A stretch of 64,000 nt of DNA from Terriglobales bacterium (GTDB taxonomy: Bacteria; Acidobacteriota; Terriglobia; Terriglobales; Acidobacteriaceae): the NCBI GenBank assembly GCA_036265205.1, contig DATAPL010000054.1:1223-65222 (forward strand), given 5' to 3'. Every line of letters starts with the position of its first letter. Positions within the stretch are counted from its first letter, which is position 1. Below are positions 28,616-45,955 of the stretch, piece after piece. The notes beneath the pieces were generated by a model, which was given only the letters and a program-made list of their open reading frames with translations, was not told the DNA's origin and made no database searches. The position numbers and the translations under genes are program-made.

Positions 28616-29740
28616 TCAGTTGATAAAATCCAGCAGGGTGCGCGCCACGTGCCCGATCTGATCCTGACTCAGTTCGGGATACATGGGCAGCGACAGAATC
28701 TCGCTGGCTAGTTTTTCCGTGACCGGCATGCTGCCCGCCCCGGGATGACCCAGATCCTGATAAGCCCCGGTCAGATGTAAGGGGACGGGGTAGTGGATCC
28801 CGCTTTGAATCCCGCACTGCTGCAGGTGGTCTTTCACAGAATCGCGGCGGCCGACCCTTACCACGAATAAATGGAAGTTATGTTCGCCGTCGGCGGGAAT
28901 TGCAGGCGCCACCACCTTTGAGCCGGCGAAAGCCGCGGCATAGCGCTTGGCGTGCCGCACCCGCAGGCTGTTCCAGCCTTCGAGATAGGGCAATTTGACC
29001 GACAGAATTGCGGCCTGAACCGCATCCAGGCGAGCATTGGTCCCCACCACCGAATGCTGATATTTCGCCGGGCTGCCGTGTTCGCGCAGAATGCGTAGCT
29101 GGCGAACCCGCTCCAGGTCGTTACAGGTTACCGCCCCGGCGTCGCCGTAAGCGCCCAGATTCTTGCCCGGATAAAAGCTGAAACAGGTTAACCGCCCGGC
29201 CGCGCCTACCCGGGTTCCATTGCGTCCGACGCCGTGCGCCTGGGCGGCGTCTTCGATCAGCTCCAGGCGATGGCGCTCGCAGATTTGCTCCAGCTGGGTC
29301 AAATCCATGGCGTAGCCGTACAAATGCACCGGGATGACGGCCCGGGTCTTTTTCGAGATACGGCGCTCGACCGCGGAAATATCGAGATGAAAAGTTTTGG
29401 GATCGACGTCGGCAAATACCGGGACCGCGCCTACGTTGCTGACCGCTTCAGCGGTAGCGAAGAAGCTGTTGGCGGGAACGATGACCTCGTCCCCGGGGGC
29501 GACGTTGGCGGCTTTGAGGGCCAGTTCCAGGGCTGAGGTCCCGGAGCTGACTCCGACTGCGTATTTCGCGCCGGCGAAGCGGGCAAATTCTTCCTCGAAT
29601 TTTTCCACATATTCGCCGCCCACAAAGTGGCCGGAATCAAACACCCGGCGCACGCTATCCAGTACTTCTTCCTTGATCGAGTTGTACTGAGCTTTTAGAT
29701 CGACAAAAGGCACTTCGAGCCGAACCGCAGAAGTAGTCAT
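28616..29740 (-). CDS. DegT-family sugar aminotransferase (WbpE-like)
   Basis: ATG at 29740 (MTTSAVRLEVPFVDLKAQYNSIKEE...) follows GAGGAGAA. DegT-family blocks are present. Sits next to WbpB- and WbpD-like genes. Confidence 0.85.
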   Translation of the reverse strand: MTTSAVRLEVPFVDLKAQYNSIKEEVLDSVRRVFDSGHFVGGEYVEKFEEEFARFAGAKYAVGVSSGTSALELALKAANVAPGDEVIVPANSFFATAEAVSNVGAVPVFADVDPKTFHLDISAVERRISKKTRAVIPVHLYGYAMDLTQLEQICERHRLELIEDAAQAHGVGRNGTRVGAAGRLTCFSFYPGKNLGAYGDAGAVTCNDLERVRQLRILREHGSPAKYQHSVVGTNARLDAVQAAILSVKLPYLEGWNSLRVRHAKRYAAAFAGSKVVAPAIPADGEHNFHLFVVRVGRRDSVKDHLQQCGIQSGIHYPVPLHLTGAYQDLGHPGAGSMPVTEKLASEILSLPMYPELSQDQIGHVARTLLDFIN

Positions 29741-29747
29741 ATTCTCC

Positions 29748-30365
29748 TCAGAGGCTATTCTTGAGAACCAGTTTGCCGGCGGATGCCAGCGCGAACGAAC
29801 TGCCACAGGACGAACAGGTCAAAGGGGAGTCAGACTTGGGTACAACCGGAGTCGGTAACTTGGTGGCGCAAACGCACATCCAGCCAATTTGACGGGCGGG
29901 GTTGCCGACCATCATGGCGAAATCGGGAACATCGCGAATAACCACGGTGCCGGCGCCGATAAAAGCGTATTGCCCGATAGTGATGCCGCACACGATAGTG
30001 GCGTTGGCGCCGATGGTGGCGCGGGTGCGAACCCGGGTGGAAACCAGGCTGTCGCCGGTTTTCTTGATGTAAGCCCGGGGATTGGGATCGTTGGTGAAAA
30101 CACAATTGGGTCCCAGAAAAACGTCGTCTTCGACTTCCACTCCCTGCCAGATGGAGACCCCGTTTTTCACCGTCACGTTGTTGCCCAGATGCACCCCGGC
30201 TTCGACGAAGGCGTGATCTCCGATATTGCAGTCGGCGCCGATGCGGGCGCCGTTCATCACGTGAGCAAAGGCCCAGACCCGGGTGTGGTCGCCGATATCC
30301 TCGGACTCGACCAGCGCCTTGGGATGCACGAAGAATTTCTTTTCCAGCATGGTTGAAGTGGACAT
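29748..30365 (-). CDS. Hexapeptide-repeat N-acetyltransferase (WbpD/WlbB-like)
   Basis: [36 protein letters not shown]... followed by LbH repeats. The ATG overlaps the upstream TAA (TAATG). Confidence 0.82.
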
Positions 30366-31393
30366 TACGACTTCCCCTCTTGCGCCAGGACCGGTTCGGG
30401 GACAGAGTCGGCATGGACTTGTTTGTGGTTGGCCGCCATTTCGACCGCGCGTACCACCGAGGCGCCGAATTGCCCGTCGGTGCGCGGAGTTTCGCCGGTC
30501 TCGATGCATTCCAGGAAATGCTCGATTTCGGTGAGCAGGGGCTCGGTGTTTTCCAGGCTGGGAGCCACCATGTCGCCGGAGCGGTAAGTCAGCTGAAATT
30601 CGCCAAAGGTTCCCGGCGGATGCAGGGTAACGCCGCGATCGTAAACTTTGATCTTCTCGCTGGGCTCAGTGTCGTCATACACCACCATGCGCTCGGAACC
30701 GACCAGGCAGGTGCGCCGCATCTTCTGCGGCGACAACCAGCTCACTTCGATGGAAGCAATCACTCCACTGCGGAAGCGGAAGGAGAGGAAGGCCACGTCG
30801 TATTTGGATTGCTGGATGCAGGAGCGCCCAAAGGAGAATCCCTGCACCGGCTCTTCCCCCAGCCAGTAAAGCAGGATGGAAACGTCGTGCACCGCCAAGT
30901 CCCAGATTACGTCGACATCTTTCTGGTACAAGCCGAGATTGACCCGGGAAAAGCTGATGTAGCGCAGGTCGCCCATGGCGCCCGAGGTGATCAGATTTTT
31001 TACCTTCACCACCGGCGGGCTGTAAATAAAAGTGTGTCCGGTCATCAAGACAAGGCCAAGATCTTTGGCCATGGCTGCCAGCTCCAGCGCTTTCTCGGTG
31101 TTGTCGGTCAGCGGCTTTTCCACAAAAACGTGTTTCCCGCTGAGCAGGGCTTGCCGCGCCAGCTCGTAGTGGGTGGAGATGCTGGTGGCAATGGCCACGG
31201 CGTCCACGTCGGAGTCGAACAGGTCTTTGGCCTGGTTAAAAGTCCGTATCTGCGGGTATTGCCGCGCCGCTTTCTGCAGCTTCTTGGCATCGAGATCGCA
31301 GCAGGCCACGAACTCGCACTTCGGGGTTTGCTGAAACACCCGGGCCAGGTTCGGCCCCCAGTAGCCCAGTCCAATTAATCCAACTTTAGTCAT
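30365..31393 (-). CDS. Gfo/Idh/MocA-family NAD-dependent sugar oxidoreductase (WbpB-like)
   Basis: [20 protein letters not shown] Rossmann N-terminus. 342 aa. Operon context with an aminotransferase and an acetyltransferase. Confidence 0.82.
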
Positions 31394-32138
31394 TGAGCGT
31401 TTGCTCCACCTTGGGTTCGGTCATGGTCGCTTTGGTCTTGGATTCGTTGGAGTGGACCACTGCCTCCAGAAACTCCGATTGAATATGTTGCCGCAATATG
31501 GCGATGTTCGGCATCACGCAGTGGCCGCCGATCACCCCGGGGAAAATATGGGAAGGCAGAAAATCAACCTCCCTGATGAACGAGACTACGTCTTCGTAGT
31601 TGCCGTCATACTGTGCCGCCAGCCGCTCCACCTCCTGCGCCCATCCGATCAGAACGCCGAAGTAGGTGGTCTCCAGCAGTTTGCTGAGTTCCGCGATGTC
31701 TGGGGTGGGAAAGGTGTCGGTCTGAAATCCGGCGCCGCGCAAGTGGCGCTGCGCCGCCTCAACCGTGGCGGCATCGAAGCCAGCCACAAATTTCTTGTAA
31801 CGCAGCATGTCGGCTTCCATGCGCGCATGCTTGCCCCGCACCGGGCTATACACCAGCGGCCGATGGGGCGCGGCTTGCTGAACCTTGCGCGTGGTTCCGG
31901 GCGCGACCGTGCTGTGAATCATGGTCAGGCGGGGATCGTATTTCTCCATGTACCGGGCGGTGATTCCGACAAAGTCAGGAACCTGGAAGGGATAGCAGAT
32001 GTGCAGCACCTCGCAGCCTTCGTTGATCTCCACCGGCTTGATGTCGACCGGCCGGGTGTCGAACGATCGTGCCAGGATCCGGAACAGCGGTTGCCCGACT
32101 TCACCCATCCCCACCACAATGACTACGCCGTTATTCAA
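31386..32138 (-). CDS. Short UDP-glucose/GDP-mannose dehydrogenase-like protein (NAD-binding and central domains only)
   Basis: VVIVVGMGEVGQP Rossmann motif. AELSKLLETTYFGVLIGWAQEVERLAAQYDGNYEDV resembles the UDPGDH central helix and GGHCVMPNI resembles the catalytic-Cys box. Only 250 aa, and there is no room for a UDP-binding domain. TTG start after GGGGAGGA. Confidence 0.45.
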   Translation of the reverse strand: MNNGVVIVVGMGEVGQPLFRILARSFDTRPVDIKPVEINEGCEVLHICYPFQVPDFVGITARYMEKYDPRLTMIHSTVAPGTTRKVQQAAPHRPLVYSPVRGKHARMEADMLRYKKFVAGFDAATVEAAQRHLRGAGFQTDTFPTPDIAELSKLLETTYFGVLIGWAQEVERLAAQYDGNYEDVVSFIREVDFLPSHIFPGVIGGHCVMPNIAILRQHIQSEFLEAVVHSNESKTKATMTEPKVEQTLND

Positions 32139-32165: not shown

Positions 32166-33758
32166 TCAATTGCAAATCTGTGATTGCACCGCCGGGATAC
32201 CATCCGGCTGGGCGTCGAACTCAAACCGCTGCGCGTTCCCGCCGCTGGCCCATTCGTGCGGCAGCCCGGCTGCTGGTTTCGTTCCCATCTCCTGCAACAA
32301 CCCGGCCTGCTGGTAGCGCGAGAGGCTGAGCTCCATGAATTTTTCCGCGCTCAGCCAGCGCTCCTGATGGCGTTCCTTCGCCTTTACCAGCTGCCAGAAA
32401 ATCTCATTCACTTCGCGGCATGCGCTTAAAGGCTCGACCGGGTTATGCCATAGCACCGAAACTCCGCCCCAACCCCAGCGACGGCTTTCCGCCAGCACCC
32501 CTTCCGCCAGCTTGGCCGGAGCTTCAGCGGACCGGTCGTGCGCCACCTGCAAACCCCGATCCATGATGACCAGGGGGATCAGCAGAAAGTTGTAAGGCGC
32601 CTCGGCCGCGAAGTTATAAGGCGGGAAGGCGAATGCGGCGCCATGACGAAATCCCAGTTGTTCCGCCCATCCCCAGCTGGAGTCATACTGCAATCCGGCT
32701 TTCTCGATGTTCGAAAACAGTTTGGCGGGATGATCAAAACGCAGCCAGTGCTGGCGGCTTCCCCGGGGGCGCTCGCCGGTGGAGGCTGCCAGGGTCTCGA
32801 CCTCCGCCGCCAAATCAGAATTTTCCACGATGCTGCGATAGGAGCCATGAAGCGCCAGCGCTGATCCTGCCGCCGGAATCTCACGCAGACGCTGAACCAT
32901 CTGCTCGAGCCTGTAGTTGCCGTCGCGGCGATGCTGGTGCTCGGCCAGGATGAAGAAAGTGGAAGAAAAGCCATCTTCCCGCGAGCGCCGCAGCAGCTCT
33001 CCCAGGTAGTCTCCTACACGCCGCCCGCGCGCCAGCTGGAGCAATTGCCCGGCGTTGTCTTTAAAGAAGGCAAAACTGCGAGCCAGCAGAACCGCAATGC
33101 CCAGATTCTTTACCACCCGGACCAGGCTTCCCCATCTTCCCGCGAAATAGAAATCAATGTCATGGGACGCGATCACCAGGTGGCACGCCGCGGGTAGAGG
33201 CGATGGCGCCGCCGGCAGGTCCTCGACTACTTTCTCCGCCTGTTTCTCTAACTGCGGACCGCCGCGGATGAAGTTTTCAAACCACGCCATCATCAACGAG
33301 GCGTGCGGGCGCAAGGGAGAGATTCCATAACTGCCAAAGACGGTCTGCGCGTATGGAATCCTGCCAATCGCATCCCGCGCCTCCACGCTCATCTCATGCG
33401 CTGCAGACAGCCATTCGAAAATCTCCCCCAGCCAGTCTGGATTTCCCGAAACCTGGTCGCGGCCATGAAAGAGGTGGAACTCCTGCTTTGCGTAGGTTGC
33501 TGCCTGCGGCTTTGGAGCGGGCCCTTCAGGCCGCCGCGGGACGTAGCGTGGCGCAATCCGCCGCGCCCCGGCGTTGCCGCCGCCGGCACCGTAAAAGCAG
33601 TTCAGACTGCCGCTGCTGCGATCATGTTTTGCCTCTATCACCGCATGCCCGTAAATCGCGGCAAAGACCCGGAAGGCATAAGACATCCGGGCGCGCACCA
33701 CGGACGGCACTTCATCGCCAAACTCAAGGCATAGAGGACGCGGAATGCAATGGCTCAT
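32166..33758 (-). CDS. Polysaccharide deacetylase-like protein (CE4-related, capsule-locus type)
   Basis: 530 aa. ...ALHGSYRSIVE...GSRQHWLRFDHPAKLFSNIEKAGLQYDSSWGWAEQLGFRHGAAFAFPPYNF resembles the deacetylase family common in EPS loci. Assigned from memory only. Confidence 0.5.
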   Translation of the reverse strand: MSHCIPRPLCLEFGDEVPSVVRARMSYAFRVFAAIYGHAVIEAKHDRSSGSLNCFYGAGGGNAGARRIAPRYVPRRPEGPAPKPQAATYAKQEFHLFHGRDQVSGNPDWLGEIFEWLSAAHEMSVEARDAIGRIPYAQTVFGSYGISPLRPHASLMMAWFENFIRGGPQLEKQAEKVVEDLPAAPSPLPAACHLVIASHDIDFYFAGRWGSLVRVVKNLGIAVLLARSFAFFKDNAGQLLQLARGRRVGDYLGELLRRSREDGFSSTFFILAEHQHRRDGNYRLEQMVQRLREIPAAGSALALHGSYRSIVENSDLAAEVETLAASTGERPRGSRQHWLRFDHPAKLFSNIEKAGLQYDSSWGWAEQLGFRHGAAFAFPPYNFAAEAPYNFLLIPLVIMDRGLQVAHDRSAEAPAKLAEGVLAESRRWGWGGVSVLWHNPVEPLSACREVNEIFWQLVKAKERHQERWLSAEKFMELSLSRYQQAGLLQEMGTKPAAGLPHEWASGGNAQRFEFDAQPDGIPAVQSQICN

Positions 33759-33857
33759 GCGAGGGCGGTCTTGGCTTTGCAGCGACTCGAGGTTGCCTGT
33801 GGTTCCGCGCCCGCGCGGCGGGAAGCCATACCGCGCAGGCGCACAGCGTTTGCGGAC

Positions 33858-36161: not shown

Positions 36162-36172
36162 CTCGACGACGA

Positions 36173-37207: not shown

Positions 37208-37306
37208 ACGTCGCGCCGACCCTTGCTGCAAACTACCAAACCTGAAATTTTGCCGCTTCCCCCGCAGATTAGGATGCTCTCCCGGTCCGCGAGGGTGGCA
37301 CGCCAA

Positions 37307-38797: not shown

Positions 38798-38861
38798 GGG
38801 GCTCCTGACAGGTTGGGCCTTACAGCGGGGGGAGAGTACTCGATTTTAGAGAGCTGAAACT

Positions 38862-39374
38862 TCAGAGTGCTTCAACATCGTAGCCTTCGACGCGCACCGC
38901 TAAGGACCGTTGAATCGCATCCACCGAGATAATCAGAGTGCGGTCTCCGTTGCGCGACAGCAACACGCCTTCCACGCCCTCGAGCGAACCGCTGCGGATG
39001 CGCACTCGTTGTCCAACTTTTAAAAAGGGATGTTCTGACCAGGGAACTTGTTCGGACACGATCATGCGCAGCGCGTCGATCTGCTCGTCAGGAATGGGAA
39101 TGGCTTCCCCGTGCATGCTGACGATGCGAAACACCCCGTTGGTGCGGTAGACGCGCAGGCGTTCGTCATTGTTGCTGGCTGTGAGCTTCACGAAAACATA
39201 GCAACTGAATAATGGGAGCTCTACTTTCTTCTTGCGATCGCTCCAACGCCTCACTTCGGTGATCAGCGGCAGGAAAGTATTCAAGCCTTGTTCCTGCAGC
39301 CGCTCGGCAATCACTTTTTCGCTTCGGGCACGAGTCTGCACCGCGTACCACTTTGCCGCTTCCTGGTTCATCAT
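38862..39374 (-). CDS. NusG-paralog transcription antiterminator (RfaH/UpxY/LoaP-like)
   Basis: NGN domain WYAVQTRARSEKVIAERLQEQGLNTFLPL...LFSCYVFVKL plus KOW KVGQRVRIRSGSLEGVEGVLL. ATG-ATG at 39374. The track ORF extends to a TTG at 39512. Confidence 0.82.
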   Translation of the reverse strand: MMNQEAAKWYAVQTRARSEKVIAERLQEQGLNTFLPLITEVRRWSDRKKKVELPLFSCYVFVKLTASNNDERLRVYRTNGVFRIVSMHGEAIPIPDEQIDALRMIVSEQVPWSEHPFLKVGQRVRIRSGSLEGVEGVLLSRNGDRTLIISVDAIQRSLAVRVEGYDVEAL

Positions 39375-40070
39375 GGGATGCGCAACCGAAGATTGCAGAA
39401 TGTGATGATCGGTAATTATGGCTTCGCCCTCTGAGTCACAGACAGCTGACCCTTGGTCGCACAAGATGGTTTGATTCTGGGACACAGCAGGGGGGAGGGC
39501 CTGATCAATCAAAAATTACATTGTTAGAGTACTGGCAGATGCAAGGAACTGCAAGAGGCACCTCAACTCGGTAGTATTAGACTCCTCGCTATAGAAACTA
39601 AAGTACTGCCCAACTGAGCTTAGCTACCTGAGAATATCGCCCCTAATGTGGCTTTCGCACGAGGATTGTCGGCAGCGGTTCACCAGACTCGCTAAAAAGC
39701 TCATTATCAGTTACGTACACCGTCAGTTACCCGAGCTGAAATGGTCGAAATCGGGGTTTTACGCCTGGGACCTAATTTTCGTATCATTATGAGATATCGA
39801 CGCCGTTCTGAGGTAATGGTCATGGTTGCAAAGTGGTTCAACTTTTTTAATTGATTACAATTATCTGCTTACGCTAGACTCGCTTTAGATGCAGTCCGAT
39901 GCGCTTACTTGGCATCACGTTCGGCGGTCTCCCCCTTCGAACTTTTGTATCTCCCCTGCGTTCCGGAGAGTAATTTCTCCGCTTGCAAGAAACTTTGTTC
40001 TCTAAGGCTGCTTGCCGTCTGAAATCCTAGACTTGAAGTAGTCGACATGAATTTCCGCACGGAGGGATGA
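39375..40070. promoter_or_regulatory. Divergent, visibly AT-richer control region between the NusG-paralog operon (-) and the LuxR-type regulator operon (+)
   Basis: About 700 bp with no convincing ORF and noticeably lower GC than the flanks. One possible sigma70-like pair for the plus strand: TTGATT (39851-39856), 18 nt, TAGACT (39875-39880). No promoter was confirmed. Confidence 0.5.
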
Positions 40071-40883
40071 ATGCAATCCACGCAAGGCACCGGGGGAGAA
40101 ACGATTCGCGTCCTGGTTGCCGACGACACCCAGATACACACCCAGTTGCTGGCCGAGGCGTTGCGCCGCGATGGCCAGCTGGAGGTGATCAACTCTCCGC
40201 TACGGTCGCGAGATTTAGTGGAAACGGTAAAGGCGCAGCGCGTCAACGTCGTGCTGCTCAGCTCCAATCTGGACGAGGAACCACTGCGCGGCTTCCAGCT
40301 CCTGCGCGAGTTGCGTGCCTCCGATCCTGGGATTCTCGCCGTCATGTTGCTCGATTCCTCCAAGCGGGAGACAATTCTGCAAGCCTTCCGAGCCGGCGCC
40401 AGGGGTATTTTCAGCCGGCACGATTCCGTGGAGACCCTATCGAAATGCATTCGCAGCGTCTACGAGGGACAGATCTGGGCGAATAGTCAGCAGATGTCGT
40501 TCGCCGTGGAGGAGTTAGCGACTTCTCCGGTGGTGCGCGCGGTCGATTCGAACGGGTTGAGCCTTCTTTCCAAGCGGGAAATGGATGTGGTTCGCAGCCT
40601 GGCAGAAGGTCTTACCAACCGCGAGATTGCTGAACGGTTAGGATTAAGCCAGCACACTATCAAGAATTACCTCTTTCGGATTTACGACAAGCTAGGAGTA
40701 TCGAGCCGGTTGGAACTCCTGTTTATGACCCTCACCCAGTCCGGCGCCCCTCTGGGAGTAACGGCGTTAGGTAAACCCTGCGCATCGAGCGACGGATATT
40801 CCAAGGATCGCCAGTCGAACGCCGGCAAAAGCGCCAAGGAACCTCGGCTCCAGCCGACCGGAACGGTCAATAACCTGAATTAA
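40071..40883 (+). CDS. LuxR/NarL-family response-regulator-like transcription factor with an atypical receiver
   Basis: REC-like domain (IRVLVADD...) plus C-terminal LuxR HTH (LSKREMDVVRSLAEGLTNREIAERLGLSQHTIKNYLFRIYDKLGV). ATG after GGAGGG. Confidence 0.88.
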   Translation: MQSTQGTGGETIRVLVADDTQIHTQLLAEALRRDGQLEVINSPLRSRDLVETVKAQRVNVVLLSSNLDEEPLRGFQLLRELRASDPGILAVMLLDSSKRETILQAFRAGARGIFSRHDSVETLSKCIRSVYEGQIWANSQQMSFAVEELATSPVVRAVDSNGLSLLSKREMDVVRSLAEGLTNREIAERLGLSQHTIKNYLFRIYDKLGVSSRLELLFMTLTQSGAPLGVTALGKPCASSDGYSKDRQSNAGKSAKEPRLQPTGTVNNLN

Positions 40884-41131
40884 GCGCCGCTCTCGCGGTA
40901 AATCTCGAAAAAATTGGATCTTTCAAAATACTTTTGGCGGCGGTCGCCCTGCATGCACCGATCTGAGAGCAAATGCACGGATGTTATAATTTCGCATCCC
41001 CCCGAGGAGCTTGACATGCAAATTTCCAGATACCTTACTGGCTGGGACAGATGTGCCCAGTGAGGCTCCGGTCGCTGCCAAAGGCTGTTCTAAGGGGTGC
41101 CGCCGATCGGCTTTCCCAGCAATGGGATCGG

Positions 41132-42262
41132 ATGAAGTTGTCTGGGCTTTACACACGGCCTCACACCAACCTCGATCCGGATCTGCATCTTCAAGAGTCC
41201 ATCAACTGGCTTAAGCGCGCGCAGGATTCCGGAACCGACCGGGGAGTTTCCTACGGCACCCGCTTCGGGCAGAAGTTTCAGCCCAGCTATCCCGAAACCA
41301 CTGGCTACATCATTTGCACCTTTCTCGAACTCTCGAGAACCCTGAAGATTCCCGAATATCTTGACCGCGCCATCGAGATGGGCCTTTGGGAAATCGCCGT
41401 CCAGATGGAGAGCGGCGCGGTAATGGGCGGCCAAGTCAACCGCAATCCTAGTCCAGCCGTATTCAATACCGGACAGGTCCTGCTGGGCTGGGCGTCTTTA
41501 TACAGGGCGACGGGTGACGAGCGCTTTGCCCGGGCGGGTGAACGCGCGTGCGCCTGGCTGATGTCGGTGCAGGAGCCCAGCGGCCACTGGATTCGCGGCA
41601 ATTCCAATTACGCCGCCAAGGGCGCCACCCTCTATAACGTCAAGGCCGCGTGGGGGCTGGGAGAGCTGGCGCAAGCTATCGGCAGTGATGAAGGGGTGCA
41701 GGCGGCCGTGCGCAATGCCGAGTACACTCAGGCTCAACAGGCTGAGAATGGGTGGTTCCCCAATTGCTGTCTATCCGATCCCGAAAGACCGCTGCTTCAC
41801 ACGATCGCGTACACGATGCAGGGCCTTATGGGTATCGGTTTGCTTAGCGACCGGCAGGATTTCATCGACTCCGCGGCGCGCATGGCGGACCAGCTCTTGC
41901 GCCTGATGGATGGGCAAGGATTTATTCCTGGCCGCATCAACCGTTCGATGGCCGGAACCGTAAGTTGGTGTTGCCTGACCGGAACCGCGCAAACTTCCAT
42001 CGTCTGGTCGCAGCTGTACGAGCGCACCGGGGGGGATAAATATCGCGAGGCGGTGCAACGGGCTAACCGTTATCTGATGGCACGCCACGACATTGCCAGT
42101 CCCGATCCCGCGATTCGAGGCGGCCTGGCGGGATCCTGGCCAGTCTGGGGCGGTTATTGCCCGTTCATGATTCCCAACTGGGCAACCAAGTTTTTTGTCG
42201 ACGCACTGCTCGCGGAGCAGCGGACCACCGCCCCCACCACGGCAGGCCGGATCAATGCTTGA
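41132..42262 (+). CDS. Alpha/alpha-toroid protein with squalene-cyclase/prenyltransferase-type QW repeats, function unknown
   Basis: RACAWLMSVQEPSGHW fits the QW motif [KR][AG]xx[FYW][LIV]xxxQxxxGxW. Weaker copies: INWLKRAQDSG, AEYTQAQQAENGW. The ATG at 41132 is preferred over the track start at 41051. Confidence 0.6.
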   Translation: MKLSGLYTRPHTNLDPDLHLQESINWLKRAQDSGTDRGVSYGTRFGQKFQPSYPETTGYIICTFLELSRTLKIPEYLDRAIEMGLWEIAVQMESGAVMGGQVNRNPSPAVFNTGQVLLGWASLYRATGDERFARAGERACAWLMSVQEPSGHWIRGNSNYAAKGATLYNVKAAWGLGELAQAIGSDEGVQAAVRNAEYTQAQQAENGWFPNCCLSDPERPLLHTIAYTMQGLMGIGLLSDRQDFIDSAARMADQLLRLMDGQGFIPGRINRSMAGTVSWCCLTGTAQTSIVWSQLYERTGGDKYREAVQRANRYLMARHDIASPDPAIRGGLAGSWPVWGGYCPFMIPNWATKFFVDALLAEQRTTAPTTAGRINA

Positions 42263-43121
42263 CTGGTTACCCAAAAATGTAAAGTCCCGGCTGCGCCAAT
42301 ACTATTACGGGACCAGGTCCGCCTACCTGCGCTGGCGTCATCCCTTTTCCGCGGACGACTTGCTTTCGGCTCTGCGCAGGCTTGGCGTCGCTGAAGGCGA
42401 TGTAATCCTGGTGCACAGCGCGTTTGCCGAGTTCGTAGGTTTCGAAGGCGGCGCGCCGGATGTAATCCGGGTGCTGAAAGATGCGGTCGGTGCCAGCGGA
42501 ACGGTCATGATGCCGACCCTGTCGTTTTCAGGAACCGCAGTAGCCTACGCCCGCGAGGCAAAAGTATTTGATCCCAGGAAGACTCCGTCGCAGGTCGGGT
42601 TGCTGACCGAAGTGTTTCGCCGCTCGAAAGGCGTAACCCGCAGCCTGCATCCCACGCACTCGGTCGCTATATTCAGCACGGAGGCTGATTACTTTGTGAA
42701 AGATCACCATCTCGCCGGCACGCCTTGCGGAAAAGGAACACCTTTCTTTCGTCTTTTCGAAAAGAATGGAAAAGTCTTGCTGCTGGGGGTGGGAGTGGCT
42801 GCAGTCACATTTTTCCATTGTGTGGAAGAACTGGTCGAGCCCGATCTTCCCTTTTCACCCTTCACGTCCGAGGTGTTCAGCATGCAGTGCATCGTGGATG
42901 GAAAAATTGTTGAGACCGCGCCGATGCGCTTGTACGATCCCGGCGTGTCCGGGCGGCGAGACCTGAGTATCCTCGAAAACGCGCTGCGGAAAAAGGGCGT
43001 GTGGCACCAGGAAAAGGTAGGCAATCTAAAACTTATTGCGCTGAAAGCCGCAGACATCTTGTCCACCACCAGAGAATTGGCGAAGCAGGGAGTTTACTGC
43101 TACCGCAAAGCCGATGCGTGA
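42255..43121 (+). CDS. AAC(3)-fold (Antibiotic_NAT family) N-acyltransferase
   Basis: LRRLGVAEGDVILVHSAF...GTVMMPTLSF...FDPRKTPSQVGLLTEVFR...RSLHPTHSVA...LLLGVG...TFFHCVEE are family blocks. The ATG overlaps the upstream stop by 8 nt. Confidence 0.8.
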   Translation: MLDWLPKNVKSRLRQYYYGTRSAYLRWRHPFSADDLLSALRRLGVAEGDVILVHSAFAEFVGFEGGAPDVIRVLKDAVGASGTVMMPTLSFSGTAVAYAREAKVFDPRKTPSQVGLLTEVFRRSKGVTRSLHPTHSVAIFSTEADYFVKDHHLAGTPCGKGTPFFRLFEKNGKVLLLGVGVAAVTFFHCVEELVEPDLPFSPFTSEVFSMQCIVDGKIVETAPMRLYDPGVSGRRDLSILENALRKKGVWHQEKVGNLKLIALKAADILSTTRELAKQGVYCYRKADA

Positions 43122-43127
43122 GCCTCC

Positions 43128-44849
43128 ATGAAACTGATTGAAGCTCTGCAAATTGCGAACACTGAGGCAGCGTCCCCGGATGGCTCCTGCGTTGCGGCTC
43201 TCTGCTGCGGCTTCACTCCGCTGCATCTCAAGACATTTGTGGCCGCCTACTTTCGTCGATCTTTTCCCGCGCGGGCGGTCAAGGTCAAGACCGGGTTGTA
43301 CGGCGATCTGGCGGGAACCATTGAAAACTTAGATACGAAAGTCGATTTTGTGCTGGTTGCTATCGAATGGCCCGACCTGGACGCGCGTTTAGGTTTGCGC
43401 ACCACCGGGAACTGGGGACCTGCGAGTCTGGCGCAGATCGTCACCGACGCGCAGGCGCAGTTGCTCAGGCTGCAATCAGCCATCGAAGCCGTGGCATCGC
43501 GGCCGGTTCCAGTCGTGATCTGCCCGCCGACGCTGCCTTTTCCTCCTGTATTTTTTAGCCGTCCCAACGAAGCAGACTCTCTGCAGCTGAATCTGAGAAG
43601 ATTATGGAATAATTTTGCGGCGCAACTGTCCGATCACGCCTCGATTGCATTGGTAAATCCGCAGGAACTGGATCGCATTTCTCCGCCCGCCGCACGGCAC
43701 GATGCTCGCGCCGAGCTGGCCAGCGGCTTTCCTTACCAACTACCCCATACTGATGTGGTTGCGCGTCTGCTGGTTGAGTTGGCGGTTCCCAGGCTTCCCA
43801 AGAAAGGCTTGATCACCGACCTCGACGATACCGTTTGGCTCGGAATTCTCGGGGATGATGGCGTACAGGGCATTTCGTGGGATCTGGATCATCAAAGCCA
43901 GCTCCATGCCACTTACCAGCAGCTGCTGAATGCATTGGTGGAATCGGGCGTGTTGCTAGCCGTCGCGTCCAACAATGATCCGTCCCTGGTGGCAGAAGCG
44001 TTCGCGCGCGCCGACCTGGTGTTGAATCCAAAATACGTGTACCCGGTTGAGGCTTCTCGCGGTCCTAAGTCGGAAGCCATCAAGCGAATCCTGCAAGCCT
44101 GGAACGTCGCTCCGGATAGCCTGGTCTTCGTCGATGATAACCCGCTGGAACTGGCTGAGGTAGGAGCTGCCTACCCGGGCGTCGAAGGCATCCTGTTTCC
44201 CAAGCATGATCCGGCGGCGATCCTAGAATTTTTCCGCACCCTCAGAGACCGCTTCGGGAAAAGGCGCATCCACGATGAGGATCGAGAGCGTCTTGCCAGC
44301 CTGCGTCAATCGCGGGAATTTCACGAAACCGTTCACGGCGCGGGAACCCTGGACAGCGTATTGCAAGGCGCCGAAGGGCGGATCAAATTTACCTACGACA
44401 AAATCCCGGTCGATTCCCGAGCGCTCGAGCTCATCAACAAGACCAACCAGTTCAACCTGAATGCCAGGCGCTACACCGAAGCGTCGTGGTCGTCCCTACT
44501 TTCCCAGGACAATTGTTGGCTGCAAATTGCGGAATATGAAGACCGCTTCGCGCGCCTGGGAAAAATATCGGTGATTGGCGGCTACCGCGAAGGAAACCGG
44601 CTGGCCGTCAGCACCTGGGTCATGAGTTGCCGTGCTTTTTCGCGGCGCATCGAATATCACTGCCTGCGCGAGCTGCTGGAACACTTCGACGCAACTGAAA
44701 TCGAATTCGACTTTATTCCAACCGAGCGCAACGGCCCGGTGCGAGATTTCCTGGCTGCGCTGACCGGCAAGCTTCCCGAATCCGCGACGGCGATAACCGC
44801 CGAGCTCTTTCGGGAAAAGTGTCCGCCCCTTTATCATCAGAAAAAATAA
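43128..44849 (+). CDS. FkbH-like HAD-IIIC family protein (candidate glyceryl-ACP loader)
   Basis: HAD motif I ITDLDDTVWLG, then LLAVASNN and VFVDDNPLE blocks, and a C-terminal GNAT-like region. The 573-aa length is typical of stand-alone FkbH-like proteins. Confidence 0.8.
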   Translation: MKLIEALQIANTEAASPDGSCVAALCCGFTPLHLKTFVAAYFRRSFPARAVKVKTGLYGDLAGTIENLDTKVDFVLVAIEWPDLDARLGLRTTGNWGPASLAQIVTDAQAQLLRLQSAIEAVASRPVPVVICPPTLPFPPVFFSRPNEADSLQLNLRRLWNNFAAQLSDHASIALVNPQELDRISPPAARHDARAELASGFPYQLPHTDVVARLLVELAVPRLPKKGLITDLDDTVWLGILGDDGVQGISWDLDHQSQLHATYQQLLNALVESGVLLAVASNNDPSLVAEAFARADLVLNPKYVYPVEASRGPKSEAIKRILQAWNVAPDSLVFVDDNPLELAEVGAAYPGVEGILFPKHDPAAILEFFRTLRDRFGKRRIHDEDRERLASLRQSREFHETVHGAGTLDSVLQGAEGRIKFTYDKIPVDSRALELINKTNQFNLNARRYTEASWSSLLSQDNCWLQIAEYEDRFARLGKISVIGGYREGNRLAVSTWVMSCRAFSRRIEYHCLRELLEHFDATEIEFDFIPTERNGPVRDFLAALTGKLPESATAITAELFREKCPPLYHQKK

Positions 44850-44855
44850 AAAACT

Positions 44856-45095
44856 ATGGATGACAACCAGGAACGACTTGCTCGCTGCTTTCTCGCAGTT
44901 TTTCCGCGCCTTGCCAAAGCCGATGTGTTGCAGGCTTCCCAGACGTCGGTGTCAGGTTGGGACTCCGTGGCAACGGTGACGTTGCTGACGACCGTAGAAG
45001 AGGAATTCGGAATTCAAGTCGATCTCGAGAACCTGGATCAACTTACTTCATTCGACTCAATACTCAGATATGTCAAGGGCGCGCTCGGACAATAG
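44856..45095 (+). CDS. Acyl carrier protein
   Basis: 79 aa. Phosphopantetheine-attachment motif GWDSVATVTLL. Lies 6 nt after the FkbH-like gene. Confidence 0.8.
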   Translation: MDDNQERLARCFLAVFPRLAKADVLQASQTSVSGWDSVATVTLLTTVEEEFGIQVDLENLDQLTSFDSILRYVKGALGQ

Positions 45096-45139: not shown

Positions 45140-45955
45140 TCATTTGCTGTGGGCGGAATATTTCCCGCTGATTGCATTCCAGCGAATCTTCAGCATCTCC
45201 AGAAACATCCTGGTACCGTCGCGCAACGGGCTGATGCGAGTGCCTTCGGCGTGCGCCCAGGCTACCGGCACTTCGACCACTTTCAGGTGGAATTTTTTTG
45301 CCAAGTAGAGCAGCTCCGGATCGAAGCCCCAACGCTCGATTCTCTGGCGGGGAAAAATTGTCTGCGCAGCCCGTCGGGTAAAGGCCTTGAATCCGCACTG
45401 TGTATCTTTAAAGCGCAAACCCAAAATGATGCGAAGCAGCAGGTTGAAGACGCGGCCGAAAAGCTGGCGATAAAGCGGCTGGCGCTGGGTTTGCAGATCG
45501 CTGCGCAGCCAGCGTGAACCGATGGCAATGTCGGCCCCGGCATGGAGGGCGGCTAGTAATTTCTCGGCTTCTTCGATGGGAGACGAAAGATCGGCGTCAC
45601 TAAAGAGCAAGGTCTCGCCGTGCGCGTGCAGCATCCCGTTGCGCACGCTGTATCCTTTGCCCCGGTTGCCGGGGTTTTCCAGAAGATGCAGTCGCGGGTT
45701 CTTCTCGGCGTAGCCGCGGATGATGTCAGATGTGTTATCCCGCGAACCGTCGTTTACCGCGATGACTTCAGCGTCCCAGCCGCGCTCCGCGACGTAGGCG
45801 AGAACTCTTTCCAGAGTGGCGCCCACTCGGGCGCCTTCGTTGTAAGCGGGAATGACGATGCTGTAGGCCGGTTTGCGGTCTGGAGGCGTCAGTCTTTGTT
45901 CCGCCAATCCTGGCTCCGCCAGTCGCTGCTCGCTCAGTTTTTGGTCCAAGGACAT
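45140..45955 (-). CDS. GT2 polyprenyl-phosphate hexose synthase (dolichyl-phosphate beta-glucosyltransferase/GtrB-like)
   Basis: YSIVIPAYNEGARVGATLERVL...VIAVNDGSRDNT...NRGKGYSVRNG...LFSDADLSSP is typical of the Dol-P-Glc/Und-P-Glc synthase subgroup. 271 aa, soluble-size. Confidence 0.8.
   Translation of the reverse strand: MSLDQKLSEQRLAEPGLAEQRLTPPDRKPAYSIVIPAYNEGARVGATLERVLAYVAERGWDAEVIAVNDGSRDNTSDIIRGYAEKNPRLHLLENPGNRGKGYSVRNGMLHAHGETLLFSDADLSSPIEEAEKLLAALHAGADIAIGSRWLRSDLQTQRQPLYRQLFGRVFNLLLRIILGLRFKDTQCGFKAFTRRAAQTIFPRQRIERWGFDPELLYLAKKFHLKVVEVPVAWAHAEGTRISPLRDGTRMFLEMLKIRWNAISGKYSAHSK

What the first reader, a model, noticed from the sequence alone, without database searches (positions are those of the whole stretch)
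41132..45095. Tightly coupled QW-toroid / AAC(3)-fold acyltransferase / FkbH-like loader / ACP cassette beside the EPS island
Four plus-strand genes are joined by an 8-nt overlap and two 6-nt gaps.

In methoxymalonyl-ACP and tetronate pathways, FkbH-type enzymes take a glycolytic C3 unit (1,3-bisphosphoglycerate) and tether it as glyceryl-S-ACP. Here the loader and its dedicated ACP sit with an Antibiotic_NAT-fold N-acyltransferase, not with PKS genes, and next to amino-sugar pathways.

A reasonable hypothesis is ACP-dependent N-acylation of an amino sugar of the polymer with a glyceroyl or derived group. An acyl-ACP-using member of the AAC(3) fold would be unusual.

The role of the first gene, a QW-repeat toroid protein, is unclear.
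Basis: partly seen in the sequence, partly recalled or inferred. Interest (0 to 1): 0.62.

Follow-up and report, generated by a model that had tools for sequence, protein, structure and literature searches.

The report
Carrier-protein glyceroyl cassette for amino sugars
Four tightly joined genes beside a soil acidobacterium's surface-sugar locus most likely build a three-carbon glyceroyl group on a small carrier protein and attach it to an amino sugar, using an enzyme type known until now only for acetylating antibiotics; nobody has tested this gene set at the bench.

Summary
Four + strand genes are joined by an 8-nt overlap and two 6-nt gaps:
- an (alpha/alpha)6-barrel protein ("TOR")
- an Antibiotic_NAT/AAC(3)-fold transferase ("NAT")
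- an FkbH-type loader
- an acyl carrier protein (ACP)

Gene 1 probably starts at 41051 or 41060, not 41132.

The loader keeps every residue shared with polyketide-type FkbH domains, including DxDxT and the SCR cysteine. NAT keeps the family's catalytic Thr-His-Glu motif, and the ACP keeps its serine.

Across 80 NAT loci from many phyla:
- 52 have an ACP within 8 kb, 30 have FkbH and 36 have TOR.
- All partnered NATs fall in one well-supported clade.
- Subclades track the acyl-making genes (FkbH versus KASIII/FabG/FabA).
- Neighbours are glycosyltransferases, flippases and amidotransferases, never PKS/NRPS.

TOR is structurally closest to sugar-acting barrels, not terpene cyclases. Elsewhere it sits beside FemAB/VimA-like or formyl transferases.

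The adjacent EPS operon encodes a VimE-like CE4 deacetylase next to WbpB/D/E-like genes, but the genome has no VimA. This leaves a free amine that NAT could re-acylate.

Best reading (about 0.6): glyceroyl-ACP-dependent N-acylation of an amino sugar. This is a new variant of known chemistry, with no bench evidence yet.

The parts
40963..40990 (+). Promoter-like site (CTGAGA, 16 nt spacer, TG-TATAAT) upstream of gene 1
   Evidence: matches 10 of 12 consensus positions and has an extended -10. The number of such sites in the region is no higher than in shuffled sequence, so this is only suggestive.
41051..42262 (+). Gene 1, 'TOR': cytoplasmic (alpha/alpha)6-barrel protein of an uncharacterised family (403 aa from 41051; alternative starts at 41060 and 41132)
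   Evidence: - AF2 model: pLDDT 92.8, pTM 0.92.
- Foldseek top hits are GH88 hydrolases, AGE-type sugar 2-epimerases, GH76 and MmpH, with TM 0.62-0.74.
- HMM hits to squalene cyclase or pectate lyase are only weak and far below cut-off.
- Invariant motifs YPETTGY, FNTG, HTIxY, CLTGxAQ and W..K...D sit at the N-termini of the inner helices.
- Homologues support an upstream start.
42255..43121 (+). Gene 2, 'NAT': Antibiotic_NAT/AAC(3)-fold N-acyltransferase (288 aa), the proposed acyl-ACP:amino-sugar N-acyltransferase
   Evidence: - PF02522, E=2.3e-49.
- The best solved relative is FrbF (3sma), followed by AAC(3) enzymes.
- Scores fall below every NCBIfam AAC(3) resistance cut-off.
- The TxFHFAE catalytic motif is kept as T185-F-F-H188-C-V-E191 (motif from 10.1101/2021.09.10.459797).
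- It belongs to the ACP-linked clade.
43128..44849 (+). Gene 3: FkbH-like HAD-IIIC phosphatase/acyl loader (573 aa), with an unassigned N-terminal domain (residues 1-220), a HAD core and a C-terminal transfer domain
   Evidence: - TIGR01686: 183 bits, above the 146.65 cut-off.
- It matches PDB 3slr (BF1531) over the HAD part.
- D231xD233xT235, S281, K314, D336-D337 and S500-C501-R502 are invariant across 43 aligned FkbH domains. Fourteen of these are actinobacterial, and two of those lie inside ORFs longer than 4000 aa.
44856..45095 (+). Gene 4: dedicated acyl carrier protein (79 aa), with the phosphopantetheine serine Ser37 in a GWDS motif
   Evidence: - PF00550: 25.8 bits, above the 20.8 cut-off.
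- NCBIfam ACP models hit below cut-off.
- The WDS serine is kept in at least 90% of members in three of the four ACP clusters found beside NAT homologues; the fourth cluster keeps a serine at the same position without the WD.
32166..33758 (-). VimE-like CE4-fold deacetylase in the EPS operon; an inferred partner that could expose the amine NAT acylates
   Evidence: - NF053580 (VimE), E=2e-12, below cut-off.
- AF2 model: pLDDT 82.4.
- The 13 Foldseek hits at E <= 0.001 are all CE4 deacetylases or esterases.
- The H199-D200-x-D202, H304 and H438 positions are invariant.
- The link to the cassette is inference only.
28616..31393 (-). WbpE-like aminotransferase, WbpD-like hexapeptide acetyltransferase and WbpB-like oxidoreductase (a 2,3-diamino-sugar pathway), directly downstream of the deacetylase
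   Evidence: Pfam DegT_DnrJ_EryC1, Hexapep and GFO_IDH_MocA. Assigned from Pfam families only.
45140..45955 (-). Convergent GT2 glycosyltransferase of the polyprenyl-phosphate sugar transferase type; relation to the cassette is uncertain
   Evidence: - PF00535, E=1.7e-31.
- Weak NCBIfam hits to ArnC, PpgS, AglJ and PgfS.
- It is conserved in most genomes of the genus that lack the cassette.
- It stays next to the FkbH remnant in G047.

Best explanation
The four genes form one operon that decorates an amino sugar with a glycerate-derived N-acyl group.

**Proposed steps**
1. The FkbH-like enzyme takes a phosphorylated C3 glycolytic intermediate. By analogy with characterised FkbH enzymes this is 1,3-bisphosphoglycerate.
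2. It removes the phosphate with its HAD domain, holds the glyceryl group on Cys501, and passes it to Ser37-phosphopantetheine of the dedicated ACP.
3. The AAC(3)-fold enzyme uses its Thr185/His188/Glu191 site to move the glyceroyl group from the ACP thioester to a free amine. The acceptor is a nucleotide- or lipid-linked amino sugar.
4. The (alpha/alpha)6-barrel protein works in the same pathway on the sugar acceptor or the product. Its reaction is unknown.

**Most likely acceptor in this genome**
The best candidate is the 2-amino group exposed by the VimE-like CE4 deacetylase of the neighbouring EPS operon, acting on a WbpB/E/D-type 2,3-diamino sugar. This would parallel the Wbp/Vim pathway, with NAT plus glyceroyl-ACP taking the place of VimA.

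**What is shown**
- Gene order and the coupled junctions.
- Family memberships and intact catalytic motifs.
- The conserved association of this NAT clade with ACP-based acyl-making genes in glycan loci.

**What is inferred**
- The substrate of FkbH.
- That NAT accepts acyl-ACP.
- The acceptor sugar.
- The role of TOR.
For: **The cassette itself**
- The junctions suggest translational coupling.
- FkbH scores above its curated cut-off and keeps all shared catalytic residues.
- The ACP serine and the NAT catalytic motif are kept.
- The own genome has a single FkbH and a single PF02522 gene, and they are adjacent.
- Glyceryl-ACP has no other candidate consumer in the operon.

**NAT loci elsewhere**
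- Of 80 NAT loci, 52 carry an ACP, 30 carry FkbH and 36 carry TOR within 8 kb.
- A 62-row NAT clade (support 98/93) holds every ACP-, FkbH-, KASIII- or TOR-linked member. Its 16-row sister clade has none.
- The FkbH-type and KASIII-type subclades are each well supported. The transferase has therefore diversified together with its acyl-donor machinery.
- Genomes with KASIII-type or ligase-type loci contain no FkbH anywhere.
- Neighbours are GT4, Wzx, AsnS, Wzy and CE4 genes, with no PKS/NRPS.

**This window**
- A CE4-fold, VimE-like deacetylase lies next to WbpB/D/E-like genes.
- No VimA/TIGR03019 homologue is found in the window or the genome.

**Literature**
- The Wbp/Vim model of deacetylation followed by re-acylation (PMC7468200).
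- An ACP-dependent N-acylation has been predicted for the F. psychrophilum O-antigen (PMC6519341).
- An FkbH-domain gene, cj1302, lies in the C. jejuni flagellin-glycan locus (PMC7099621). That strain makes di-O-methylglyceroyl nonulosonic acids (PMC3068675).
Against: - There is no biochemical evidence for any step.
- Every characterised Antibiotic_NAT enzyme uses acetyl-CoA.
- The cassette lies outside the EPS operon, separated from it by three regulator genes and on the opposite strand.
- It is absent from 47 of 48 other genomes of the genus, while the flanking genes are kept.
- In some close relatives it does not sit in a glycan locus. Examples are an ECF sigma/anti-sigma pair with rhamnosidase neighbours, and a GT2 with a multi-span membrane protein.
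- Both amino-sugar routes of the EPS operon have their own hexapeptide acetyltransferases.
- A PaaK-like ligase in the operon could be the enzyme that re-acylates the freed amine.
- The VimE-like assignment scores far below the NCBIfam cut-off.
- No complete WbpA is present in the window.
- A closely related group of Magnetococcales NATs shows no partner genes within the sequence held.
Confidence: 0.6

Rival explanations
1. The chemistry is the same, but the target is different. The N-acylated sugar does not go into the Wzx/Wzy EPS. Instead, a GT2 of the ArnC/GtrB/PpgS type loads it onto a polyprenyl phosphate. It is then used outside the membrane to decorate LPS, another glycan or a surface protein.
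For: - A GT2 with weak hits to ArnC, PpgS and AglJ lies convergent to the ACP gene.
- It stays next to the FkbH remnant in G047.
- In the closest relatives (L001, L005) the cassette sits beside a GT2 and a 582-aa protein with about 7 hydrophobic spans, resembling a GT-C transferase.
- Large TIG or He_PIG surface proteins lie next to the cassette in the window, L001 and L103.
Against: - The GT2 is conserved in most genomes of the genus that lack the cassette.
- The own genome has no homologue of the 582-aa membrane protein.
- The window GT2 shows no predicted membrane span.
- In most other phyla the cassette is embedded among Wzx, Wzy and GT4 genes.
Confidence: 0.2
2. NAT is an ordinary acetyl-CoA-dependent N-acetyltransferase of an amino sugar. 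The FkbH/ACP pair feeds some other enzyme (TOR or one encoded elsewhere), for example one that O-acylates the polymer or makes a lipid.
For: - All characterised family members use acetyl-CoA.
- The catalytic motif is unchanged.
- 28 of 80 NAT loci show no ACP nearby.
Against: - NAT subclades track the type of acyl-ACP-making genes, and the ACP-free NATs form a separate clade.
- The window operon has no other transferase candidate.
- TOR occurs mostly without any ACP: an ACP lies within 4 kb in only 10 of 83 TOR loci. TOR is therefore unlikely to be the consumer of the acyl-ACP.
Confidence: 0.12
3. The cassette makes a small specialised metabolite unrelated to glycans, such as a glycerate-derived amide or a tetronate-like compound.
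For: - All characterised FkbH enzymes act in polyketide or tetronate pathways (PMC7489565).
- Some related loci combine FkbH, two ACPs, KASIII and an SDR (type C), which resembles the tetronate 'glycerate-utilisation' gene set.
- Some acidobacterial copies lack glycan neighbours.
Against: - No PKS/NRPS, ketosynthase or condensation domains occur near any of the 80 NATs.
- The window has no KASIII.
- Even type C loci begin with a GT4.
- Glycan markers lie near 43 of 80 NAT loci.
Confidence: 0.06
4. Gene 2 is an aminoglycoside-resistance AAC(3), and its neighbours are coincidental.
For: - The Pfam family name.
- JGI annotations of the homologues as 'aminoglycoside 3-N-acetyltransferase'.
Against: - It scores 56.8-105.4 bits against cut-offs of 270-675 for every NCBIfam AAC(3) model.
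- Its closest solved relative is the biosynthetic enzyme FrbF.
- It is conserved in an operon with FkbH, ACP and TOR across phyla.
Confidence: 0.02

Closest known systems
FkbH / OzmB-type glyceryl-ACP formation in methoxymalonyl-ACP and tetronate pathways (e.g. Mad7/Mad8 and Mad14/Mad12 in tetromadurin, PMC7489565)
   Same: - TIGR01686 domain scoring above cut-off.
- All HAD motifs and the invariant SCR cysteine.
- A dedicated stand-alone ACP encoded immediately downstream.
   Different: - No PKS, no FkbG/I/K-type tailoring genes and no FabH-like tetronate synthase nearby.
- It carries an extra 220-residue N-terminal domain.
- It sits in glycan rather than polyketide contexts.
Antibiotic_NAT family: AAC(3) aminoglycoside acetyltransferases and FrbF (CMP-aminopropylphosphonate N-acetyltransferase; PDB 3sma)
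   Same: The fold family and the TxFHFAE catalytic Thr/His/Glu motif. FrbF, which acts on a nucleotide-linked amine, is the closest solved relative.
   Different: - It scores below all AAC(3) resistance-model cut-offs.
- It belongs to a clade that is genomically tied to ACPs and acyl-ACP-building genes.
- The inferred donor is acyl-ACP, not acetyl-CoA.
Wbp/Vim pathway of Porphyromonas gingivalis and Tannerella forsythia (WbpA/B/E/D, VimE deacetylase, VimA aminoacyl transferase, WbpS amidotransferase; PMC7468200)
   Same: - A CE4-fold VimE-like deacetylase lies beside WbpB/D/E-like genes, with an AsnS-type gene in the same EPS operon.
- The logic is the same: remove the 2-N-acetyl group, then re-acylate the amine.
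   Different: - No VimA/FemAB-type transferase exists in the genome.
- The proposed re-acylating enzyme has an unrelated fold, and the proposed donor is glyceroyl-ACP.
- The VimE match is distant.
- No clear WbpA is present.
Predicted ACP-dependent N-acylation of UDP-Qui2NAc4N in the Flavobacterium psychrophilum O-antigen (WfpC-G; PMC6519341); also NodA/NodF and LpxD as acyl-ACP N-acyltransferases (own knowledge)
   Same: A dedicated ACP in a glycan locus supplies an unusual N-acyl group to an amino sugar. The KASIII/FabG-type sister loci (type B) resemble the wfp gene set.
   Different: - The transferase there is a PglD-like left-handed beta-helix enzyme, whereas here it has the AAC(3) fold.
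- The acyl group there is built by ketosynthases, whereas here it is captured from glycolysis by FkbH.
Campylobacter jejuni NCTC 11168 flagellin-glycan locus (FkbH-domain gene cj1302; di-O-methylglyceroyl pseudaminic/legionaminic acids) and T. forsythia Pse5Am7Gra
   Same: - An FkbH-domain gene lies in a glycan-decoration locus (PMC7099621).
- N-glyceroyl-type sugar decorations exist (PMC3068675, PMC5378307).
- Their genetic basis was described as unknown in 2017 (PMC5378307).
   Different: - No nonulosonic-acid genes are seen in the window.
- I could not test whether those organisms carry an Antibiotic_NAT or TOR homologue.
GH88 unsaturated glucuronyl hydrolases and AGE-family sugar 2-epimerases (structural neighbours of gene 1)
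   Same: The (alpha/alpha)6 barrel, with TM-scores of 0.62-0.74. The conserved residues lie at the barrel mouth, where these enzymes bind sugars.
   Different: - Only 9-16% identity, and no Pfam hit to either family.
- The conserved set is different (E55, H223, C281, K353, D357).
- The reaction is unknown.

Membership tests
FkbH (TIGR01686, HAD-IIIC glyceryl-ACP loaders) | HMM score above the curated cut-off | tested here: met
   183.1 bits against 146.65. The whole-genome search gives 185.1 bits and a single copy.
FkbH (TIGR01686, HAD-IIIC glyceryl-ACP loaders) | HAD phosphatase motifs (DxDxT, S/T, K, DD) | tested here: met
   D231, D233, T235, S281, K314 and D336-D337 are invariant across 43 aligned FkbH domains, 14 of them actinobacterial.
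FkbH (TIGR01686, HAD-IIIC glyceryl-ACP loaders) | Conserved cysteine of the C-terminal transfer domain (site of the glyceryl-S-enzyme intermediate; role known from OzmB work, own knowledge) | tested here: met
   S500-C501-R502 is invariant in 43 of 43 domains.
FkbH (TIGR01686, HAD-IIIC glyceryl-ACP loaders) | Dedicated stand-alone ACP partner | tested here: met
   The ACP gene starts 6 nt downstream. FkbH and an ACP co-occur in 28 of the 30 FkbH-containing NAT loci.
FkbH (TIGR01686, HAD-IIIC glyceryl-ACP loaders) | Forms glyceryl-S-ACP from 1,3-bisphosphoglycerate | not testable with these tools
   Needs an enzyme assay with intact-protein MS.
Antibiotic_NAT (PF02522) fold family | Pfam HMM above the gathering score | tested here: met
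   168.5 bits against 25, covering profile positions 1-229 of 232.
Antibiotic_NAT (PF02522) fold family | TxFHFAE catalytic motif (Thr, His, Glu) | tested here: met
   Present as T185-F-F-H188-C-V-E191. T185 is invariant, and H188 and E191 are kept in at least 90% of 27 homologues. The motif aligns to TSFHLAE of FrbF. Motif definition.
AAC(3) aminoglycoside-resistance enzymes (NCBIfam NF033080-NF033082, NF033180, NF033612) | Score above the curated cut-off of any AAC(3) model | tested here: not met
   The best score is 105.4 bits against a cut-off of 270; the others are 56.8-96.1 bits against 420-675. It should not be filed as a resistance AAC(3).
Acyl carrier protein (PF00550) | HMM above cut-off and a conserved phosphopantetheine serine | tested here: met
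   25.8 bits against 20.8. Ser37 lies in GWDS, and the WDS motif is kept in at least 90% of members in three of the four neighbouring-ACP clusters.
Squalene/terpene cyclase or prenyltransferase (QW-repeat) family, for gene 1 | HMM score above cut-off | tested here: not met
   TIGR01787 gives 24.2 bits against 322.7. The profile against PDB matches only single QW-like hairpins of squalene-hopene cyclase. Cyclases rank below sugar-acting barrels in Foldseek.
GH88 / AGE (alpha/alpha)6 sugar-acting barrels, for gene 1 | Shared fold | tested here: met
   TM 0.62-0.74 and probability 1.00 to 3wiw, 1vd5, 5zhb and 4z4l, from a model with pLDDT 92.8.
GH88 / AGE (alpha/alpha)6 sugar-acting barrels, for gene 1 | Family HMM match and family catalytic residues | tested here: not met
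   No Pfam GH88 or GlcNAc 2-epimerase hit at E <= 0.01. Identity is 9-16%.
Wbp/Vim-type deacetylate-and-reacylate pathway | VimE-type CE4 deacetylase next to Wbp genes | tested here: inconclusive
   NF053580 gives E=2e-12 but 46 bits against a cut-off of 440. The CE4 fold is supported by Foldseek. WbpB/D/E are assigned from Pfam only. No full WbpA is present.
Wbp/Vim-type deacetylate-and-reacylate pathway | VimA / pepcterm_femAB (TIGR03019) transferase | tested here: not met
   No match in the own genome or the window. The cassette is proposed to work like this step, not to be a member of the family.

The most novel reading that the evidence does not exclude
Two uncharacterised enzyme families are defined here.

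1. **An ACP-dependent clade of the Antibiotic_NAT fold.** This clade would take acyl groups from dedicated carrier proteins instead of acetyl-CoA. The groups would be glyceroyl from FkbH, or short hydroxyacyl chains from KASIII/FabG/FabA sets. It would be the first acyl-ACP-dependent branch of the fold, and a genetic basis for N-glyceroyl and related rare N-acyl sugars.
2. **The (alpha/alpha)6 'TOR' family.** TOR would be a general partner enzyme of amine-acylating steps in glycan loci. It pairs with three unrelated transferase families: AAC(3)-like, FemAB/VimA-like and formyltransferases. It would carry out a still unknown sugar-level reaction needed for such N-acyl exchange, such as epimerisation or a non-CE4 deacylation.
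Probability: 0.3. Interest if true: 0.75.

Novelty: new variant of a known kind. Interest (0 to 1): 0.58.

Why it matters
Rare N-acyl groups on bacterial surface sugars include glyceroyl, lactyl, hydroxybutyryl and di-O-methylglyceroyl. They shape antigenicity, phage recognition and biofilm matrix properties. For N-glyceroyl sugars the genes were stated to be unknown in 2017 (PMC5378307).

This cassette gives a compact, testable route with four small soluble proteins and one glycolytic substrate. It also suggests that the Antibiotic_NAT fold, studied almost only as an antibiotic-resistance family, has a large environmental branch with a different donor and a biosynthetic role. That matters for annotation, because these genes are now widely labelled 'aminoglycoside 3-N-acetyltransferase'.

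The work also flags a widespread uncharacterised sugar-acting barrel family that travels with three kinds of N-acyl transferases.

Tried and rejected
- **Terpene cyclase or prenyltransferase reading of gene 1.** Rejected. The HMM scores are far below cut-off, only single QW-like hairpins match, and the structural neighbours are sugar-acting barrels.
- **TOR as an obligate partner of NAT.** Rejected. Three Acidobacteriota genomes have TOR but no NAT. In 83 TOR-centred metagenome loci, NAT is adjacent in only 11.
- **TOR as the consumer of acyl-ACP.** Unlikely. An ACP lies within 4 kb of TOR in only 10 of 83 loci.
- **TOR as the N-deacetylase.** Considered, because it sits where VimE sits next to VimA-like genes. 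It was weakened because CE4 deacetylases are present alongside TOR in this window and in L105.
- **PKS/NRPS context.** Searched for and not found.
- **Resistance AAC(3).** Rejected on the curated cut-offs.
- **Literature.** Searches for FkbH with polysaccharide terms, for AAC(3) with acyl carrier protein, and for PF02522/YokD/FrbF found no description of this gene set. One search was poorly designed and gave nothing useful.
- **A GT-C-like partner in the own genome.** Not found.
- **Inspecting clustering of conserved TOR residues in 3D.** Not possible, because model coordinates are not exposed.
- **Campylobacter and Tannerella genomes.** They could not be queried for NAT or TOR, because the control genomes do not include them.

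Full report
**1. The observation**

Four + strand ORFs occupy 41051/41132-45095. The junctions, read from the sequence, are as follows.
- The gene 2 ATG at 42255 lies inside the end of gene 1, whose stop is TGA at 42260-42262. This is an 8-nt overlap.
- Six nucleotides separate gene 2 from gene 3.
- Six nucleotides separate gene 3 from gene 4.

Homologues from five or more loci align with the 24-27 codons upstream of 41132. The start is therefore probably the ATG at 41051 or the GTG at 41060. A TG-extended -10 promoter-like site lies at 40963-40990, but such sites are no more frequent here than in shuffled sequence.

**2. What each gene is**

*Gene 2 (288 aa, "NAT")*
- It is a full-length Antibiotic_NAT domain (PF02522, E=2.3e-49).
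- Its closest solved relative is the biosynthetic N-acetyltransferase FrbF, followed by AAC(3) enzymes.
- It scores far below every curated AAC(3) resistance model.
- It keeps the family's catalytic TxFHFAE motif as T185-F-F-H188-C-V-E191 (motif from 10.1101/2021.09.10.459797).

*Gene 3 (573 aa)*
- It passes the curated FkbH cut-off (TIGR01686, 183 bits against 146.65).
- I aligned its FkbH domain with 28 FkbH-like neighbours of NAT genes and 14 actinobacterial FkbH domains. Two of the actinobacterial domains lie inside ORFs of more than 4000 aa, that is, megasynthases.
- All 34 near-invariant positions were checked. The window protein keeps D231xD233xT235, S281, K314, D336-D337 and S500-C501-R502.
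- It differs only at R311 (Trp in most) and A475 (Gly in most).
- Its N-terminal 220 residues match no family.

*Gene 4 (79 aa)*
- It is an ACP (PF00550 above cut-off).
- Its serine lies in a GWDS motif. The WDS motif is kept in three of the four ACP clusters found beside NAT homologues; the fourth keeps the serine alone.

*Gene 1 ("TOR")*
- It gives only weak HMM hits.
- An AlphaFold2 model built on 26 homologues is confident (pLDDT 92.8, pTM 0.92) and shows an (alpha/alpha)6 barrel.
- Its nearest solved structures are GH88 unsaturated glucuronyl hydrolases, cellobiose and GlcNAc 2-epimerases, GH76 and MmpH (TM 0.62-0.74). Terpene cyclases rank lower.
- The sequence similarity to squalene-hopene cyclase is confined to single QW-like hairpins.
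- Invariant motifs (YPETTGY, FNTG, HTIxY, CLTGxAQ, W..K...D) sit at the N-termini of the inner helices, where such barrels have their active sites.
- It has no signal peptide, so it is probably a cytoplasmic sugar-acting enzyme.

**3. Neighbourhood conservation, centred on NAT**

Gene 2 has 231 relatives at E<=1e-10, all carrying PF02522. Contexts of three of them, at 70%, 52% and 43% identity, all show NAT-FkbH-ACP.

A scan of one genome per species returned 80 loci from many phyla. I compared them by tblastn and by clustering the neighbouring ORFs. Within 8 kb of NAT:

| Partner | Loci (of 80) | Loci with full flanks (of 48) |
|---|---|---|
| ACP | 52 | 34 |
| FkbH | 30 | 22 |
| TOR | 36 | 24 |

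Four architectures recur.
- **A:** TOR-NAT-FkbH-ACP, often with a VOC/glyoxalase gene or a MaoC-SDR gene.
- **B:** NAT-SDR-ACP-FabA-SDR-KASIII-AsnS-AMP ligase-ACP-NAD synthase-like-TOR.
- **C:** GT4-SDR-NAT-ACP-ACP-KASIII-FkbH.
- **D:** AMP ligase-NAT-unknown, in Actinomycetota.

Other recurrent neighbours are GT4 glycosyltransferases, Wzx flippases and AsnS-type amidotransferases. One acidobacterial copy lies inside a complete Wzy/Wzx/GT4/CE4 locus. The 19 largest ORFs near NATs contain no ketosynthase or condensation domains. Genomes with type B or D loci contain no FkbH anywhere. TOR/NAT junctions overlap, or are under 10 nt, in a dozen loci from several phyla.

**4. The NAT tree**

I built a maximum-likelihood tree of 78 NATs.
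- A 62-row clade (support 98/93) holds every NAT linked to ACP, FkbH, KASIII or TOR.
- A 16-row sister clade has no such partner.
- Within the first clade, one subclade of 29 rows (98/98) is mainly FkbH-linked: 22 rows with FkbH, 2 with another ACP type, and 5 with no partner in the sequence held.
- A second subclade of 32 rows (100/97) is mainly KASIII-linked or type C.
- The partner labels need 13 changes on the tree, against 42 when shuffled (0 of 200 shuffles were as low).

The transferase has therefore diversified together with the machinery that makes the acyl-ACP. This is the strongest argument available here that NAT takes its acyl group from the ACP. The tree disagrees with taxonomy. 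For example, a Chloroflexota sequence sits beside a Gemmatimonadota one, and a Mycobacteriaceae sequence lies among Proteobacteria. The cassettes therefore move horizontally.

**5. TOR is a broader glycan-locus enzyme**
- TOR is found in 7 of 301 Acidobacteriota genomes.
- Three of these have no NAT.
- In two of those three, TOR overlaps the start of a formyltransferase gene. The surrounding genes are AsnS, GT2, heparinase II/III-like, GFO/IDH/MocA and DUF354.
- In 83 TOR-centred metagenome loci, the gene within 300 nt of TOR is a FemAB/Acetyltransf_6-type transferase in 20, NAT in 11, and a formyltransferase in 2.
- Among the 37 loci with at least 1.2 kb on both sides of TOR, 21 have one of these three next to it.
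- An ACP lies within 4 kb in only 10 of the 83.

TOR therefore travels with three unrelated families that acylate amines, and it does not depend on an ACP. Its reaction is unknown. I considered a deacetylase role. CE4 deacetylases occur alongside TOR here and in L105, which weakens that idea.

**6. The window's own context and a candidate acceptor**

The minus-strand EPS operon carries, in order:
1. a NusG-like gene
2. a sigma-54 activator
3. Wza
4. Wzc
5. a 530-aa protein
6. a 250-aa dehydrogenase-like protein
7. WbpB-like, WbpD-like and WbpE-like genes
8. a GT4
9. a phosphoglycosyl transferase
10. a PaaK-like ligase
11. a GT4
12. Wzy
13. a PglF-like dehydratase
14. a second aminotransferase
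15. further genes

The 530-aa protein has no Pfam hit. It matches the NCBIfam model for VimE, a UDP-2,3-diacetamido-2,3-dideoxy-glucuronate deacetylase, at E=2e-12, which is well below the cut-off. Its model (pLDDT 82.4) matches only CE4 deacetylases at E<=0.001, and CE4-like His/Asp positions are invariant.

In P. gingivalis, VimE is proposed to remove the 2-N-acetyl group of the Wbp product. VimA, a FemAB-like enzyme, then re-acylates the amine with serine (PMC7468200). This genome has no VimA/TIGR03019 homologue. The only dedicated N-acyl transferase without an assigned substrate is NAT, which lies about 8.5 kb away (33758 to 42255). This makes the deacetylated 2,3-diamino sugar the best candidate acceptor, but the link is circumstantial. 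The PaaK-like ligase is an alternative re-acylating enzyme. No full WbpA is present in the window.

**7. Distribution**
- The genome has one FkbH and one PF02522 gene, and they are adjacent.
- In 48 other genomes of the genus, the flanking NusG-like, LuxR, GT2 and TIG genes are widely conserved, but no cassette DNA is found.
- The exception is G047. It keeps an N-terminally truncated FkbH next to the GT2 and has no NAT, so it looks like a decaying remnant.

The cassette is therefore an accessory, horizontally acquired module. This fits a strain-specific surface decoration.

**8. Mechanism: shown and inferred**

Shown:
- the coupled operon
- the family memberships
- intact catalytic motifs in FkbH, ACP and NAT
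- the clade-level association of NAT with acyl-ACP-making genes in glycan loci
- the sugar-enzyme fold of TOR

Inferred from the established chemistry of FkbH enzymes (PMC7489565):
- 1,3-bisphosphoglycerate is dephosphorylated
- the glyceryl group is held on Cys501
- it is then passed to the ACP

Inferred from context:
- NAT moves the glyceroyl group to an amine of a nucleotide- or lipid-linked sugar
- TOR acts on the same sugar

The operon has no tailoring gene (dehydratase, reductase or methyltransferase). The group is therefore most simply plain glyceroyl. Loci that add MaoC-SDR or VOC genes may make lactyl or epimeric variants instead.

**9. Rivals**

The main rival keeps the chemistry but changes the target to a polyprenyl-phosphate-linked sugar made by the adjacent GT2. 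In the closest relatives, a GT2 and a multi-span membrane protein flank the cassette. The own genome lacks that membrane protein.

Less likely readings are:
- NAT is a plain acetyl-CoA enzyme and the ACP feeds something else
- the product is a small metabolite
- the gene confers aminoglycoside resistance

**10. Novelty**
- FkbH/ACP loading is known in polyketide pathways.
- ACP-dependent N-acylation of amino sugars is known or predicted with other transferase folds (LpxD, NodA, PglD-like WfpG).
- Notes from this scan report FkbH-ACP cassettes in glycan loci with GNAT, FemAB-like or MBOAT transferases. Those are unchecked leads, not evidence.
- I found no paper describing an Antibiotic_NAT enzyme tied to an ACP, or the TOR family.

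I therefore rate this as a new variant of a known kind. It would become more interesting if acyl-ACP use by the AAC(3) fold and the TOR reaction were demonstrated.

Noticed in passing
window 32166-33758 (-): A 530-aa protein with no Pfam hit has a CE4 deacetylase fold and a distant VimE match. It sits directly upstream of WbpB/D/E-like genes, yet the genome has no VimA/TIGR03019 transferase. It has more than 500 homologues, mostly annotated as hypothetical.
   Followed up: yes
L106 9184-11267; L108 2141-4056; 20 of the loci L110-L189: The TOR family sits next to a formyltransferase (stop and start overlapping) or a FemAB/Acetyltransf_6-type gene in loci that lack NAT. One uncharacterised sugar-barrel family therefore travels with three unrelated amine-acylating families.
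   Followed up: partly
window 31386-32138 (-): A 250-aa protein carries only part of a UDP-glucose/GDP-mannose dehydrogenase (the central domain) at the place where a full WbpA would be expected. It could be a short paralogue or a truncated gene.
   Followed up: no
window 25234-26595 (-): A PaaK/F390-synthetase-like adenylating enzyme (DVU_1553 family hit, below cut-off) lies inside the EPS operon. Homologues at 27-35% identity lie near TOR in L148, L184 and L187. It may be an amide-forming ligase for a sugar amine or a uronic acid.
   Followed up: partly
L001 3747-6237 (-); L005: In the closest relatives the cassette is flanked by a GT2 and a 582-aa protein with about 7 hydrophobic spans (GT-C-like, no family hit). 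This suggests a polyprenyl-phosphate sugar route. The own genome has no homologue of the membrane protein.
   Followed up: partly
G047:C9:1321561-1324947: The only other genome of the genus with cassette DNA keeps an N-terminally truncated FkbH (a 426-aa ORF matching residues 150-572) beside the GT2, but has no NAT. It appears to be a decaying remnant.
   Followed up: partly
L001, L005, L007, L008, L010, L014, L021, L025, L030: A small VOC/glyoxalase-family gene accompanies many type A cassettes but is missing from the window. The fold family includes methylmalonyl-CoA epimerase, so it might act on the ACP-bound acyl group.
   Followed up: no
L015, L018, L022 (Magnetococcales): NATs at 44-45% identity to gene 2 nest inside the FkbH-linked subclade, but show no FkbH, ACP or TOR within the sequence held. 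L022 has full 10-kb flanks.
   Followed up: no
window 37307-38797 (-) and L169-L180: A sigma-54 activator scores close to the PEP-CTERM-box regulator model (TIGR02915, below cut-off). Similar activators and Wzc-like genes recur in TOR loci, hinting at an exosortase-type EPS system.
   Followed up: no
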